DNA from: the human T2T-CHM13v2.0 reference genome, Homo sapiens | Direction: 5' to 3' (one strand) | NCBI RefSeq assembly: GCF_009914755.1 | Contig: NC_060926.1 | DNA length: 64,000 bases | In this document: positions 10,290-62,394 of the stretch, piece after piece | Position numbering within the stretch: the stretch's first letter is position 1 | Layout: every line of letters begins with the position of its first letter | Notes under the pieces: model-generated | What the model was told of the DNA's origin: nothing | What the model saw: only the letters and a program-made list of their open reading frames with translations | Databases searched by the model: none | Made by a program: the position numbers and the translations under genes

Positions 10290-13200
10290 CTACCTGTTAC
10301 ATGAGAAAATAACAAAATCAGAATAATCTTTACTGTTTGGCAAGCTTACAGTAACTAGTACTCTGCTCCATTGTTGTGGCACTGAAAACATGCACGCAGA
10401 GTTTCTGGAAAGCAGTTTGGTGGTACACATCAAGAAAAATAACAATCTTTTTGTGGAAGGAGATCCATGCACAAAGATGTTCACTTTGTTGTTGCACTGC
10501 TTATCAAAGTGAGAAATTGGATGCCTCCTATATATAGCTGAATTAGGATTTAGCTGCTTGCTGGAATTATGTTTATACAGCAACAGGAAGAGAAATGCTT
10601 GTGATGAAATCTTCAGCAATAAAATTCAGGATGCAAAATTTATGTACACCGTGTGTGATTAAAAAGGAATAGATGATAAATGATGATAAAGAATATTTTT
10701 ATTGATATTCACAAACGAGGGTAGAAGCATAGTGGTAATAAATACTCATGAGGTATTTGTTAGAATATTTGTATTATAAAGCTAAATAAAAACTTTATGT
10801 GAATTCCATCCTTACAGCCTTGTGAGTTGGGTCCTGTCCATTGACAGATGAGCTCACAGAGGCACTGAGTAGTGATCTGCCAGTGTCATCTAGCCAACAG
10901 TTGGAGGAGCTGAGATTCAAAACCAGGTGAGCGTCCCGTCTCTGCTTCTGACTGCTGCGGCATGCTGCCTGGTGCTGAGGCGGGAAGTTGCTGGGGGCAC
11001 ACGGTGGAGAAAACAAGCGGCAACGTGGGGAGCACCCTACGTGCCACCTGGCTGAGCCATCGTAGTCCTTCTGAAAAATTCCAGATGGTTTTGGTTGATT
11101 ACAGGGTCAGTGTGAGCCAGTACGTGGCACATGCCCCAAAGGTGAGCCACACATGACCTCAGTGAAGTCTTTGGTGCTTATAAATAAGGTTGTTGTTTCA
11201 TTATTTAGTTGTAAGAGCAGCATTTAAAGAAGAACCTGAAAACCTTAGGGATGGAGAAACCTCCTTGTAGGACGGATATCTGAAGGACGCGGGGCTCCTG
11301 GTTTCGGAAGGGGCAGGAGAGGGCGTACATGAAGGGCTTTCTCTGGCTGAGGAAGGTAGACATAGTATTTGTTCCTCTCTAGAGGAGGCTTTCACAAGAG
11401 CAAGCCTTGACTCAGATATGAGGGAGAGGATAACTGGGTGAGCAGACTGAGCGGCGAGCTGGTGGTTGGAAGGTTCCTGCAGCGGGTGGACGGCCTCTGT
11501 CTCTGAGGAAGTTATAGAGGGAGGTGAGGACGTGGGCTCGAAGGCCCTGGAGATGTCTTCCAGTTGTGAGACTCTGGAGTCCAGCCTTCTCCCCCTGCTG
11601 GCTAACAACAATGATTGGAATTTAGATGGTGACTTGTGGAATCCTGTCCGCAGTGACCACTGCATTAGTCATGGAAGGAGGGTACCTCTGAAGGAACACA
11701 GAGGTCTGTGACTTAACTAACGTCCAAGTGTTGGCATGAATCATACTTTGGTTCAGAGGTATCTGCTATTTAATTTGGCTGGCTTTTATAGTCAGCCAGT
11801 CTGTGGGCCAACCTGGTGGCCGCATGCATCTGTAAGACATGGGGCTGCAGTTTCATCAGTGGTTCTTTAATCTTTTGGTTATCATAGACATCAGTAAAAA
11901 TAAGAAGGCTGTTTTGGATGATCCCTCCAGGAAAAGGTACCTTTACATAATTTTGCATACACTGTTTGGGATGCCCATACCCCCATAAACCTGTCCGCAA
12001 ACCCAACCTACCAAGCAAAAAAGCTCAGACCTTGAGCTTAAATCTTCTACCAAATCAACACGATGACTTCATCTGTTTCCTCATCTGTAAAATCCTGCAG
12101 AGTTGTAAGGATGAAAGATATTTCTACACGTATGTCATCTCCACAGTGTTCATGGTAGCTACTATCTGAGGCTTTAGAGACCATGTACTTTCCAAGGGCT
12201 GCTTGTCCCTGAGGGTGAGGCTCCAGGATCTCGTGAAACCACAGGAGTCAGCTTGCTTCCCAGGGGCTGTGCCCTCCATGGAGTTGGGTGGGGGCAGCGT
12301 GTGTTTTTAAGTCATCACTGTGGTGAGCGTGGGGTCATGGGGTATGACGTGGCAAAAATGAAGGGCTGAAAGCTGCTTACCCTGGCAAAATGCACATTCT
12401 GTAATGTAGCGAGTCAGATTGCTTTGCCAACATGAACTCTTCCTCCATTAAAGGATGTGAATATAATTGGGAGTAAAATTTCTAATAGCTTGTACTCCCC
12501 ATACAACAAATGTTGAATTCACCTCTTGGCTTTGAACCCCAGACACCTTGGGGTAGCCTGTCTCCAGGCTAAAGGAGAGCCCTGCAAGTTTTTTAGTGAA
12601 ACCCCCTTCCCACCACCTCCAACCCCCTTCTCCTTCCCTGATTTGGTCTCAGAGCACCCCTAGGAGGGAAGCAGCTCTCTGGTTAAGGAGAGTCTAGGGT
12701 GAGTCAAGCAGCTGGTAGCTCAGTTTTAATCTCATGCCATACTACATTTTCAATGAGGAAATTCCTCTAAATGTCATCTGCTCCAAGAAGCCTTTTCTGT
12801 TACCAGCCCCCAGAAAATGTACTCCTTTCCCCATAGAGTGCTGTGTTTCCACCTCGTGTAATTTACATCACAGTGGATTGTTTTCGCATGTTTATCTTTG
12901 TCTTGCTAAGTTGTGTGTTGGCAGGTACCAAGGTTTATTATCTTTCTTGAATGCAGATCTCTTAGAAGCCTTTTGGCTGCTCTCCGTTACCTGGGATGAA
13001 GTTCCTCATCTCTGGCTCCTGCCTGACTCTCCAGCCCTTCCCCATGCTCTGGACACACCAAGCGCCTTGAATTCCCCAGAGCTCATTTTGTTTCTTGCCT
13101 TTGTGTCGCTGCACTGAACTGATGGGCTGAGTCTTTCTCACTTATTGGATGCTTGCTTCTTGAGGGTAGGGGCTCTGTTTGATGAATCTTTGTGTTCATT

Positions 13201-58917: not shown

Positions 58918-59196
58918 GTGAGTAGCTTCCCTCCCACTGTGGTTTAAAACCATCTTAATGCAACAGACATTTTCATCTAAATGTCACTTCTGTGTAATCC
59001 TGTGTTTTCATGCCGTGCCGCCCACGTGGAGTGTGGCGTTCCCACGCCTGTCCTCTGTCTTGGTGGGAGGGAAGGTTTGACCAGCGAGGGAGGCAGTTGT
59101 CGCATTGTGTGGAAATGGCCCCATGAGCACCAACGTTTCACTGTACCTCAGTCTTAATTTTCTGATTGGTTCTGTTGTGTGTGTGTGTTTTTAAAG

Positions 59197-59283
59197 ATCA
59201 AACAGGCCCAGGATGAAGAAAGAAGGCAGTTGATACAGCTTCGAGATATTTTGAAATCCGCATTGCAGGTTGAACAGAAAGAG
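59197..59283 (+). CDS. ASAP2: ASAP2 exon 9, 87 nt, IKQAQDEERRQLIQLRDILKSALQVEQKE (end of BAR domain)
   Basis: (TG)6T5-aaag acceptor, gtgagg donor, phase 0/0. Confidence 0.96.
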
Positions 59284-60139
59284 GTGAGGGGATTTAATTT
59301 TGAAAGATTGCGGTTTTCACCCCATTCTTGGAGGCTTTGGGTCTGAAGAACATGAAGTTCATGTCTTCTAGGAGCTCACAGTTCACTCGGGCTGTGTCAG
59401 GCACCAGTAAAACATTTAATGTATTCTTGCAATTTAGTTCTATAAAACCATCTTTTAAAATATGTTTATTTCAGGAGGAAGCATTTACTACATGCATGGC
59501 CTTAATGGCGGTGTATAAACCCTGTGCTCTGTCAGTTGCTAGATAAGGAGCTCTCAGTGGCTTCGTCACAGAGACCATGTGTCATTTGTGCTATTTATCC
59601 TGTACCTGGCCCTGTGTCATTTCCCTACCCTGACATACGTGGACTCTGCCCCTTTAGGCCTAGGCACGTAGCAGGGGACCAGCTGGGGCTCTGCCAGCCC
59701 TGAGATTGTGTTCTATAAAATATGAGGCATGAGCTTTTCTTACAGCTGCCTCCATCATGACAGGCAGAAATCCTTAGTTCTCTTACTTCCCCTCTTTCTG
59801 TAATGACGTCTCTGTGTGCTAACACGTCAGCAGGGACAGTTTGTGTTGTGGGGACTTGTTTTTAAAAAGCCATTAAAAAGTAAGTTTTAAAGATAATTTT
59901 ACTATATTTTCACTACAATGTGGGTATCATAATGTGAATTTAGTATAAATCCATTTCCTTGTTAATAAAAGGAATGTATCTAAACATATATCTAGTGATT
60001 TTAGAGAAATTGCTAAACTACTTGACAGCATAAAGTTCCCTGTTGGCAGTTTGGTGAGCTCTATTTTATTGTAAGTTCTTGTACTATAACTGAATATTGT
60101 TGTTTTTCTCCCAAATGCGTTTACCTTTTGTGACCGAAG

Positions 60140-60148
60140 TCTAGGAGA
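60140..60148 (+). CDS. ASAP2: Alternative 9-nt microexon TCTAGGAGA (Ser-Arg-Arg)
   Basis: gaag|TCTAGGAGA|gtaagt, phase 0/0 matching the end of exon 9; upstream U-rich tract with TGC, downstream TGCATG. Confidence 0.82.
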
Positions 60149-60592
60149 GTAAGTAGTTCAGTATTTTAATAAATTGCAGAATTTTGCATGTTTTATTCGT
60201 GAACATACATATATATATTCCTTTTATATATTAATGGTTAGTAGCATTTTTTATTTTAACCCCTCACCTTTCATTGTTGTAGACTTTATTAAAGGCTGAA
60301 GAGTTTGCATAAATATTAGGGAAGTGGACATTTTCTGGGTTTACAGTTTACACTTTTGCTGCTGTTCCTTTATGAAGATGAAGCAGGTCCCTCCCTCCCT
60401 CCCTTTCTCTCCCCTGAGTGGCTGAATTCTACACATCTCTCTAGTCCCTCTGAAGCCCCACCTCTGGAGCGCTGCCTCTGATCACCCCAGCCCACAGTGA
60501 TCTGAGTTCACAGAGCACATCCTGTTTGAATGCCCCATTTGAATCACAGCCTATTCCTCTTTTTGAGTGTTGGTTGTGCCTTAAGTGCACAG

Positions 60593-60700
60593 ATGGCTTT
60601 TCACCAGCTGGACCTCGAGCAGCCTGAGGATGCCACCCTGCCTTCTGAGCCATTCTTCCATCACACTGTAGTGCCACAGCGCTCATTTAGTAGGATTTTG
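60593..60700 (+). CDS. Candidate alternative exon or coding part of an internal first exon, MAFHQLDLEQPEDATLPSEPFFHHTVVPQRSFSRIL
   Basis: cag|ATGG...TTG|gtaaac; 108 nt, stop-free, ends in phase 0; non-repetitive sequence. Confidence 0.4.
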
Positions 60701-62394
60701 GTAAACATGGGTCAACTAAGTGAGACACTGGCAGAGCAAGGTTATATTTAGTGCTAGAAAGGACCTACAACATGGTGACTTCCTCCTAGTCTAGAGAATG
60801 TAGGCCCTGACGCTTTGATATTCCCAATAAGCAAAAAAAGGAAAAAAAACTTGGCGTAAGGAGAAAATAGTGGGCTAGCGGTAACGAGGAGGAGGTAGTG
60901 CGAGGGCAGGAGCCAGAATGCCGTCCAAGGTGGCTGCTCCCCAGCGCACCGTTGGAAATGATCGAGAACTGCCTTTGTCTAAGAAGGAAGATCCAACCCA
61001 TGAAGCAAAGCTCAGGTTTAAAATAAGGCAGAGCAGCTGCTGGGGCCAAATGGCCCTCTGGGCACAGTGCAAAGGCTGTGTTTGCTTTGCCTGTGCAGAA
61101 TTAGGAGGTTTGGGAAAACGGGCTGTTGTGAGAGAACTGGTTATTTACAGCTTCGCAGGAAAGTAATAACAAATTTACCAGCACAGACCAGAAGTTCTTT
61201 ATAGTTTGTTGTTTTTTGTTAACCAGCCCATCTGCCCCTGATTGCACAGAGGGATCAAATGAACCTCCTTTACTATTCTTCTTTGGCTGTCTGCCCAGTT
61301 GGCTCCTTGTCAAGACCTAACTCAACAGTCTCCTAGTTGTGGGCGTGTTGTGTTTTCTGTGTATCATGCTCTGCGTTGCTTTTAGGTGATGGCATTCAGC
61401 AAGTTGGACAATCTTTGAACACAGTTGCAAGTAATAAGCAGATGTGAAAATGCTAAATTTTCTGTTTTAAAATGATTTTTATGATGGGGGTTCCATCTTG
61501 TATACCTCAAATTTGCAATAAGAATCGATCATTTGGTCATTATTGTTTAGGCCGTCATTCCCTTTGGTTGGATTTTCTTCTGTGACTTAGACAACTGAAG
61601 GTGTTAAGAGGATTTTTATTCAGTGTTATAAAAATTCTAACCCTCCCTGTGTAATAACAGTTGATAGAAATTAAGTAACATGCCCCAAAGAAACTGCCTT
61701 GATGGTTGGTAGAAGCCAGTGCTCCTCATTCTCTTCCTGTAAATCCCAAGCATCAGTTATTGAAGGAATGAAGAGTGGCCATTCCAGTGTGGTAGCTTCG
61801 TGCTGCTGTTTCCTTGTGACCCTGCAGCTTTGTTTTAGTGTGGAGCTTGTGCCGTTCTGGTCCCGGTGACCTCACACCTCCCAATCACTGGCCATTCATG
61901 TTTTGTTCTTGATATTTTCTGCTCTCTGTAAGGAGAATACTACTCTTTGGTATTTCCATTATTTTTCTTTGTGAAGGTTTTCATACTTGGAGAAAAGTTG
62001 AAAAATTGTGCAGTGACCACCCATAGTGCAATATTATACAATGAGGATCGAACTATGTACCATAGTGTTTGATTTTTGGAGAAGATCCTATTTACACAGT
62101 TAAACTCGTTGGCACTGCTCATCTTTGGTTGAGCTCTCTCCCCGTCAGCCTCGCCTCCTGCCTTCCCCATCCCACGTCGTCCATCCGATGGTGTTCTGCC
62201 AGGATGGACCCTGTTGGGGTGCTGGCGGAGTCCCAAAGCCTCATCACTTGTGTGCAGGCTCTCTCTGCTGTTTGATGTGGAGAACCCAGACTTGTGTGCT
62301 TCTATGGGGAGGATCAGGCTCTGGGGCATGGTCTCACAGGTCTGAGTGCTGAAACCACCATGGTTTTCCACTCTGCAGATCTCAAGTATGGTTG

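What the first reader, a model, noticed from the sequence alone, without database searches (positions are those of the whole stretch)
60084..60190. Hidden 9-nt microexon (Ser-Arg-Arg) in the BAR-PH linker with a neural splicing signature
Seen: gaag|TCTAGGAGA|gtaagt at 60140-60148 with a consensus GTAAGT donor and the correct phase after ...VEQKE. A possible branch point (ctataac, 60084-60090) and a U-rich tract lie upstream, with TGC at 60116-60118, and TGCATG lies 37 nt downstream (60185-60190). It is invisible to the ORF track. Established: neural microexons are 3-27 nt, preserve frame, are activated by SRRM4/SRRM3 via upstream UGC and by RBFOX via downstream UGCAUG, and are enriched in trafficking and GTPase regulators. 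From memory, the paralog ASAP1 has an SRR insertion at the equivalent position. Inference: a neuron-specific switch adding basic charge and a phosphorylatable Ser between the membrane-binding BAR and PH domains. It may already be catalogued in splicing databases.
Basis: partly seen in the sequence, partly recalled or inferred. Interest (0 to 1): 0.8.

Follow-up and report, generated by a model that had tools for sequence, protein, structure and literature searches.

The report
Known neural 9-nt microexon of ASAP2
This is a real 9-base exon that adds Ser-Arg-Arg between two membrane-binding domains of ASAP2 in nerve cells, but it is already annotated and catalogued, so only its protein function remains open.

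Summary

The exon is not hidden. RefSeq already lists 60140-60148, and human predicted isoforms contain the window-coded sequence plus SRR plus the next exon.

A published table lists a human ASAP2 microexon, HsaEX0006174, as the orthologue of a 9/4-nt zebrafish asap2a microexon. Its neural ΔPSI is 70. Overexpressing an eMIC-domain (SRRM3/4-type) protein gives ΔPSI 99, and zebrafish srrm3/4 loss gives -56.

New here:
- The homologous ASAP1 intron holds the identical 20-mer, which occurs only twice in the genome.
- 118 of the 120 best protein hits, from human to lungfish, bichir and teleosts, carry [S/A]RR at the site.

The insert falls between the BAR end and the PH N-terminal extension.

The RBFOX idea and the phospho-Ser idea are not supported. 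ASAP1 has no GCATG nearby, and the Ser is Ala in five fish models.

The exon's protein function is untested. Verdict: already known, low interest.

The parts
59197..59283 (+). Upstream constitutive exon, encoding the end of the BAR domain (...ALQVEQKE); its donor joins either the microexon or the next exon
   Evidence: Hub annotation. Translation. The ASAP3 BAR structure 9jih aligns up to this junction.
60084..60090 (+).
   Evidence: It lies inside a 62-nt stretch with no AG upstream of the acceptor. Neural microexons have a median predicted branch-point distance of 45 nt (preprint section read).
60103..60112 (+). Displaced polypyrimidine run TTTTTCTCCC, at -37..-28
   Evidence: The position fits the upstream-shifted Py tract described for neural microexons.
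60116..60118 (+). UGC motif at -24..-22, between the Py run and the acceptor AG; the expected SRRM3/4-responsive element
   Evidence: A UGC between branch point and AG is found in 57/73 and 51/71 SRRM3/4-dependent microexons (preprint section read). ASAP1 has UGC at -18 and -40.
60138..60139 (+). Acceptor AG, preceded by the purine-rich GACCGA
60140..60148 (+). The 9-nt microexon TCTAGGAGA = Ser-Arg-Arg. An internal AG at 60143-60144 would give a 4-nt frameshifting variant (60145-60148).
   Evidence: RefSeq exon (hub). Human predicted isoforms carry SRR at this junction. The zebrafish orthologue is listed with two acceptors 5 nt apart.
60149..60154 (+). Consensus donor GTAAGT
   Evidence: Identical in ASAP1.
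60185..60190 (+). Single TGCATG at +37; a possible RBFOX site of unproven relevance
   Evidence: There is no GCATG within 300 nt of the ASAP1 microexon.

Best explanation
Window 60140-60148 is the known neural microexon of ASAP2 that depends on SRRM3/4 (their eMIC domain). It is most probably VastDB event HsaEX0006174.

Splicing. By default the 9-nt exon is skipped. It is too short for exon definition, and its 3' splice site is unusual: a 62-nt stretch free of AG, a pyrimidine run displaced to -37..-28, then UGC at -24, then a purine-rich stretch before the AG. The donor is a perfect GTAAGT. In neurons, and perhaps in endocrine cells, SRRM4/SRRM3 act on the UGC-containing region upstream of the acceptor and the exon is included.

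Protein. [quoted passage not shown] This adds two positive charges and three residues to the tether, about 10 residues before the conserved YSLHQ motif. The ASAP1 counterpart of that motif contacts Arf1 switch 1.

What is shown and what is inferred:
- Shown by sequence: the anatomy, the reading frame, the identical copy in ASAP1, and the insert in vertebrate gene models.
- Shown by published tables: neural enrichment and the eMIC response.
- Inferred: the mode of SRRM4 action at this particular exon, and any effect on membrane binding, BAR autoinhibition or GAP activity.
For: Anatomy and frame.

Annotation: the hub table lists a RefSeq exon at 60140-60148. Seven human predicted isoforms contain SRR followed directly by the next exon, and 5 of those 7 also contain the full 241 aa coded in the window.

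Published regulation (eLife 2025, PMC12626424, supplementary file 1; header and rows read):
- zebrafish asap2a DreEX0015082, neural microexon, ΔPSI neural 80.03, ΔPSI on srrm3/4 loss -55.77
- human orthologue HsaEX0006174, ΔPSI neural 70.12, ΔPSI on eMIC overexpression 99.04
- what these values measure was read in the methods

A 2026 preprint (PMC12871342, Table 1) lists an ASAP2 microexon among 13 conserved neural microexons. It gives a mean human PSI of 8.3%, 72% human-chicken alignment, and function 'unknown'.

Paralogue: the ASAP1 intron holds cgaag|TCTAGGAGA|gtaagt. This is the only similarity between the two introns outside repeats. The 20-mer occurs exactly twice in the genome at up to 1 mismatch, and the reversed control occurs 0 times. 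The flanking exons are only 67-68% identical, 38-45% at third codon positions.

Vertebrate spread: of the best 120 of 905 hits, 113 carry SRR, 5 carry ARR and 2 are skip forms. The taxa run from human to monotremes, turtles, alligator, birds, Anolis, lungfish, bichir, gar and teleosts.

Domain placement.

PH N-terminal extension (ASAP1 residues 325-334) contacting Arf1 switch 1: passages of PMC12485133.
Against: - The link between HsaEX0006174 (and the preprint's 'ASAP2 microexon') and these coordinates is inferred. It rests on the 9-nt length, on the zebrafish listing of two acceptors 5 nt apart (matching TCTAG|GAGA), and on the orthology call. No source I could open gives human coordinates.
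- ASAP2 has at least one other small alternative segment, 6 aa near residue 862 in jerboa isoforms. The preprint's exon could in principle be that one.
- No RNA-seq was examined here.
- The motif signature alone is matched by 3 sites on the + strand and 10 on the control strand.
- Gene models in other species are largely automatic predictions.
- Nothing here tests a protein-level effect. Published ASAP1 PH and PH-GAP-ankyrin constructs start at residue 325, downstream of the insertion site.
- The eLife abstract names other microexons for its defects and says single deletions typically had mild or no effects; I did not read asap1b's own results.
Confidence: 0.9

Rival explanations
1. RBFOX proteins binding the UGCAUG at +37 are a main driver of neural inclusion, alongside or instead of SRRM3/4.
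For: One TGCATG lies at 60185-60190. From recall, downstream (U)GCAUG sites usually enhance inclusion. The chance of a TGCATG within 100 nt is about 3% at the window's own frequency of 20 per 64 kb.
Against: The ASAP1 microexon is identical and, per published tables, equally neural. It has no GCATG within 300 nt on either side. eMIC overexpression alone gives ΔPSI 99 in HEK293. One text search (ASAP2 + Rbfox + exon; 10 papers, 8 listed) showed nothing on this in titles or abstracts. Conservation of the motif in other vertebrates could not be tested, because no vertebrate genomes are on hand.
Confidence: 0.2
2. The internal AG (TCTAG|GAGA) makes the element work largely as a 4-nt frameshifting 'poison' exon that lowers ASAP2 output.
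For: There is an AG at 60143-60144. The 4-nt form gives a stop 12 codons later. The zebrafish table lists both acceptors for asap2a and asap1b, and quotes RT-PCR bands of 106 vs 102 bp for asap1b.
Against: PSI above 90 in zebrafish brain would then destroy the reading frame of a conserved gene. All 118 insert-bearing models carry the 3-aa form. The 4-nt listing may be only a coordinate convention. No reads were examined.
Confidence: 0.04
3. The exon is annotation noise: a cryptic splice event with no conserved role.
For: The motif signature alone occurs by chance several times per 64 kb. Mean human PSI is only 8.3%.
Against: The identical 20-mer sits in the paralogous intron and nowhere else in the genome. 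[S/A]RR appears in 118 of 120 best hits across bony vertebrates. Neural and eMIC responses are published.
Confidence: 0.02

Closest known systems
ASAP1 neural microexon (human HsaEX0006155; zebrafish asap1a DreEX0015055 and asap1b DreEX0015073)
   Same: Identical 9-nt exon and identical 5 + 6 flanking intron bases, in the homologous intron. Listed as neural and eMIC-dependent: human ΔPSI neural 60.01, eMIC overexpression 98.52. UGC upstream and a long AG-free zone.
   Different: The microexon lies 6741 nt into a 7569-nt intron, against 856 nt into a 9348-nt intron in ASAP2. ASAP1 has no GCATG nearby. It has been deleted in zebrafish lines (asap1b); the ASAP2 one has not, as far as the texts I read show.
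The vertebrate SRRM3/4 (eMIC) neural microexon programme
   Same: Length of 3-27 nt, frame preserved, UGC between Py tract and AG, upstream-shifted Py tract, strong donor, a GTPase-regulator host gene, deep vertebrate conservation.
   Different: Nothing atypical was found. Splice-site strength scores were not computed.
Cytohesin-1 3-nt microexon in its PH domain (read only as cited in PMC6724607)
   Same: A tiny exon in an Arf regulator that alters a phosphoinositide-binding module.
   Different: That exon lies inside the PH domain and has a shown effect on lipid preference. Here the insert is in the BAR-PH tether and no effect has been shown.
AGAP1 neural microexon (PMC12871342)
   Same: Another ArfGAP gene with a conserved neural microexon of unknown function, probed in the same study.
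   Different: A different gene family branch and position. AGAP1 shows covariation in both species sets; ASAP2 shows it only in the 9-species set.

Membership tests
SRRM3/4 (eMIC)-dependent neural microexon | Cassette exon of 3-27 nt that keeps the reading frame | tested here: met
   9 nt, phase 0, no stop.
SRRM3/4 (eMIC)-dependent neural microexon | UGC motif between branch point / Py tract and the acceptor AG | tested here: met
   UGC at -24, downstream of the Py run at -37..-28. The feature is present in 57/73 and 51/71 SRRM3/4-dependent microexons and is not strictly required.
SRRM3/4 (eMIC)-dependent neural microexon | Extended branch-point-to-acceptor region, shifted Py tract, strong donor | tested here: met
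   62-nt AG-free zone, Py run at -37..-28, GTAAGT donor. This was compared only qualitatively with the description read. No MaxEnt or SVM-BPfinder scores were computed.
SRRM3/4 (eMIC)-dependent neural microexon | Higher inclusion in neural than in other tissues | tested here: met
   By look-up of a published table only: HsaEX0006174 ΔPSI neural 70.12, zebrafish orthologue 80.03. The link from event identifier to these coordinates is inferred. No reads were examined.
SRRM3/4 (eMIC)-dependent neural microexon | Inclusion responds to SRRM3/4 or the eMIC domain | tested here: met
   Published table only: ΔPSI 99.04 on eMIC overexpression in HEK293 and -55.77 on zebrafish srrm3/4 loss. Same caveat on the identifier.
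SRRM3/4 (eMIC)-dependent neural microexon | Conservation across vertebrates | tested here: met
   118 of the best 120 protein hits carry [S/A]RR, from mammals to lungfish, bichir, gar and teleosts. 72% human-chicken alignment of the region. Nucleotide conservation across species was not testable.
RBFOX-activated exon | (U)GCAUG within a few hundred nt downstream | tested here: met
   One TGCATG at +37.
RBFOX-activated exon | Motif conserved in orthologues or paralogues | tested here: not met
   There is no GCATG within 300 nt of the identical ASAP1 exon. Orthologous introns were not available.
RBFOX-activated exon | Inclusion changes on RBFOX perturbation, or CLIP binding | not testable with these tools
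   The one text search run found nothing on this.

The most novel reading that the evidence does not exclude
The BAR-PH junction of ASAP proteins may be an ancient, reused site for tiny neural-type exons that set the length and charge of the tether ahead of the PH N-terminal extension. That extension activates Arf1 GTP hydrolysis in ASAP1.

Evidence in hand:
- The exon and its splice-site flanks are frozen, identical over 20 nt, in ASAP1 and ASAP2, while neighbouring exons are 67-68% identical.
- The 175-nt homologous ASAP3 intron holds gaag|TCTCCCTGA|gtgagc. It matches 13 of 20 bases, has an in-frame stop and no Py tract, and looks like a decayed copy. My estimate of the chance probability is about 0.03.
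- Gastropod ASAP gene models differ by a conserved 9-aa (27-nt) insert at the same ...KE| junction. It is present in Elysia chlorotica, Aplysia and Lymnaea, and absent in Elysia crispata, Plakobranchus, Candidula and Bradybaena.

If the mollusc insert is a regulated microexon, this would be one of very few positions shared outside vertebrates. A fly-mammal comparison found only four exons in equivalent positions.
Probability: 0.2. Interest if true: 0.45.

Novelty: already known. Interest (0 to 1): 0.15.

Why it matters
As a finding it adds little. The exon is in RefSeq, in VastDB-derived tables and in a 2026 structure-probing study.

The open point is its function, which that study lists as 'unknown'. 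The insert sits about 10 residues ahead of the PH N-terminal extension, recently shown in ASAP1 to contact Arf1 switch 1. The PH and PH-GAP-ankyrin constructs used in that biochemistry start downstream of the insertion site, so those construct types cannot show any effect of SRR; BAR-PH constructs (ASAP1 aa 1-431, ASAP2 aa 1-397) do span it, and I could not tell which isoform they carry.

ASAP1 and ASAP2 carry the same exon, so single deletions may be buffered by the paralogue. I did not read the asap1b-specific results; the eLife abstract says single deletions typically had mild or no effects. A double deletion would test this.

Tried and rejected
They may hold the human coordinates of HsaEX0006174 and the probed ASAP2 fragment.
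- Text search for 'HsaEX0006174': 0 papers.
- Papers not held: Juan-Mateu 2023, Jian 2009 and Irimia 2014. Anything said about them is recalled or taken from other papers' citations.
- A 29-aa exon query was too short, so I used a 48-aa exon instead.
- Cluster-representative search: 0 of 62 alignments covering the junction carry SRR. Representatives are evidently skip isoforms, so this is uninformative about distribution.
- My idea that inclusion creates an RRxS kinase site: dropped. The residue after RR-D/E is P, A or L in seals, panda, a bat and horses.
- RNA structure: the ASAP2 region folds no better than shuffles (z -0.66), and neither does ASAP1 (z +0.38).
- Rfam: no family in 59000-61500. 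No meaningful ORF on either strand.
- TDP-43-regulated 'ASAP2 exon 23' is a different exon.
- ASAP2 appears only in the reference list of PMC8395343.
Whether SRR extends the last BAR helix or lies in a flexible linker is therefore undetermined.
- ASAP3's constitutive ...SRKNS... could align either with SRRDS or with the downstream SR of ASAP1. This is ambiguous and I make no claim from it.

Full report
**1. The observation**

The sequence is exactly as described.
- The acceptor AG is at 60138-60139, TCTAGGAGA (Ser-Arg-Arg) at 60140-60148 and the donor GTAAGT at 60149-60154.
- CTATAAC is at 60084-60090, TGC at 60116-60118 and TGCATG at 60185-60190 (+37).
- The eight annotated coding exons in the window translate open in one frame and end ...ALQVEQKE at 59283. 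The 9-nt exon therefore enters in phase 0.

The next constitutive exon lies outside the window, at window coordinate 68632. I found it by comparing the downstream DNA with the paralogues. The junction reads ...QKE / SRR / DSQ....

**2. Is it more than chance?**

The motifs alone are not enough.
- On the + strand there are 133 AG-N(3k)-GTRAG candidates. Of these, 114 are stop-free and 3 also have a pyrimidine-rich upstream region and a TGC.
- The antisense control strand gives 122, 96 and 10.

Three other lines settle the question.

(a) RefSeq lists an exon at 60140-60148 (hub table). Seven human predicted isoforms returned by a protein search contain SRR followed directly by the next exon, and five of the seven also contain the full 241 aa coded in the window.

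(b) The homologous intron of ASAP1, found with the upstream exon's peptide, contains cgaag|TCTAGGAGA|gtaagt.
- It is 1 of 19 stop-free candidates in that intron, and the one with the strongest pyrimidine tract, 0.86.
- The 20-mer is the only similarity between the two introns outside repeats.
- It occurs exactly twice in the 3.1-Gb genome at up to one mismatch, while the reversed control occurs 0 times.
- The neighbouring constitutive exons are only 67-68% identical, 38-45% at third codon positions.

(c) A protein search over the junction region returned 905 hits. Of the best 120, 113 carry SRR, 5 carry ARR (Fundulus, Xiphophorus, Poecilia) and 2 are skip forms. The named taxa include human, other primates, carnivores, bats, rodents, a sloth, monotremes, a marsupial, turtles, alligator, birds, Anolis, lungfish, bichir, gar and many teleosts. 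An earlier search with a BAR-domain exon listed 120 mammalian ASAP2 models. Of these, 86 contain the junction: 16 with SRR, 68 skip forms and 2 intron read-throughs.

**3. What is known in print**

*eLife 2025, PMC12626424.* I read the abstract, methods sections 13-14, passages, and supplementary file 1 part 1. The supplementary table lists:
- zebrafish asap2a DreEX0015082 as a neural microexon with two acceptors 5 nt apart, giving 9 or 4 nt. This matches TCTAG|GAGA here.
- for that exon, ΔPSI neural 80.03 and ΔPSI on srrm3/4 loss -55.77.
- its human orthologue HsaEX0006174, with ΔPSI neural 70.12 and ΔPSI 99.04 on eMIC overexpression in HEK293.
- asap1a and asap1b with 9-nt microexons orthologous to human HsaEX0006155 (60.01 and 98.52).

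The asap1b exon was deleted in fish lines. It is also included in zebrafish beta cells, PSI 86.78.

It lists an ASAP2 microexon among 13 conserved neural microexons taken from VastDB. It gives a mean human PSI of 8.3%, 72% human-chicken alignment, covariation 'yes/no', and function 'unknown'.

*Caveat.* No source I could open gives human coordinates for these events, so the link to 60140-60148 is inferred. The inference rests on length, acceptor geometry, orthology and the RefSeq exon. ASAP2 also has another small alternative segment far downstream.

**4. How it most likely works**

*Splicing.* The upstream region has the published architecture of SRRM3/4-dependent microexons.
- There is a 62-nt AG-free zone, a pyrimidine run at -37..-28, UGC at -24 between that run and the AG, and a consensus donor.
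- ASAP1 shows the same layout: a 117-nt AG-free zone and UGC at -18 and -40.
It is unverified, and TTTAC (A at -17) is an alternative.
- The RBFOX idea rests on a single TGCATG that ASAP1 lacks.

*Protein.* The placement is as follows.
- Pfam puts BAR_3 at 33-266 and PH at 310-398 in the human isoform.
- SRR is at residues 284-286 in the dog and squirrel isoforms, which have the same domain coordinates.
- The ASAP3 BAR crystal construct (9jih) aligns up to the junction, and the ASAP1 PH structure (5c6r) aligns from residue 293.
- In a 43-sequence alignment, the stretch just after the insert is variable and the following YSLHQ.QGNK motif is conserved.
- In ASAP1 that N-terminal extension (residues 325-334) contacts Arf1 switch 1 and is needed for activation (passages of PMC12485133).

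The insert adds two invariant Arg and three residues about 10 positions ahead of that element. The Ser is not invariant. Any effect on GAP activity, BAR autoinhibition or membrane binding is inference. Published PH and PH-GAP-ankyrin constructs begin at residue 325.

**5. Verdict**

This is a true feature, correctly read, and already known.
- the exact 20-nt identity with ASAP1 and its uniqueness in the genome
- the ARR variant in some fishes
- a possible decayed copy in ASAP3
- a possible mollusc counterpart at the same junction

The last two are leads only.

Noticed in passing
L003 reverse complement 1680-1688 (= G000 C1, ASAP3 intron bases 96-104 of 175): gaag|TCTCCCTGA|gtgagc lies in the intron homologous to the one holding the microexon. 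It matches 13 of 20 bases of the ASAP1/ASAP2 20-mer, has an in-frame TGA and has no pyrimidine tract upstream. It may be a decayed copy of the microexon; my estimate of the chance probability is about 0.03.
   Followed up: partly
Proteins P0142, P0371, P0373 versus P0138, P0372, P0374, P0375: Gastropod ASAP gene models differ by a conserved 9-aa insert ([S/T]NRFSG[T/S]GW) at the same ...KE| junction between BAR and PH. It is present in Elysia chlorotica, Aplysia and Lymnaea, and absent in Elysia crispata, Plakobranchus, Candidula and Bradybaena. This may be a 27-nt alternative exon, but the evidence is from gene models only.
   Followed up: partly
window 10818-10926 (+): This 109-nt exon of 'other transcripts' has stops in all three frames and a length that is not a multiple of 3. 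Its inclusion would truncate the protein, so it is likely a poison or non-coding cassette.
   Followed up: partly
window 59176-59192 (+): (TG)6 followed by T5 lies directly before the acceptor of exon 59197-59283. From recall, this arrangement resembles TDP-43-bound UG tracts at 3' splice sites. The TDP-43-regulated ASAP2 exon in print is exon 23, not this one.
   Followed up: no
window 60106-60112 with 60144-60149; L006 minus strand, the same relative places: In both ASAP2 and ASAP1 the centroid fold pairs the UCUC(CC) of the pyrimidine tract with the GGAGA(G) of the microexon and donor. This would loop out the UGC and the acceptor. Neither region folds better than shuffles (z -0.66 and +0.38).
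   Followed up: partly
Proteins P0036/P0039 and P0066/P0079 (outside the window): Other ASAP2 isoform differences are a 6-aa segment (VDLSGT) near residue 862 in jerboa models and a 45-aa cassette near residue 800 in squirrel models. ASAP2 therefore has at least one more small alternative segment.
   Followed up: no
eLife 2025 supplementary files 1 and 4: For zebrafish asap1b the table gives a length of 9 but 4-nt coordinates, and RT-PCR bands of 106 vs 102 bp. For asap2a it gives a length of 4 with both acceptors listed. Whether a 4-nt form exists or this is a coordinate convention is unclear.
   Followed up: no
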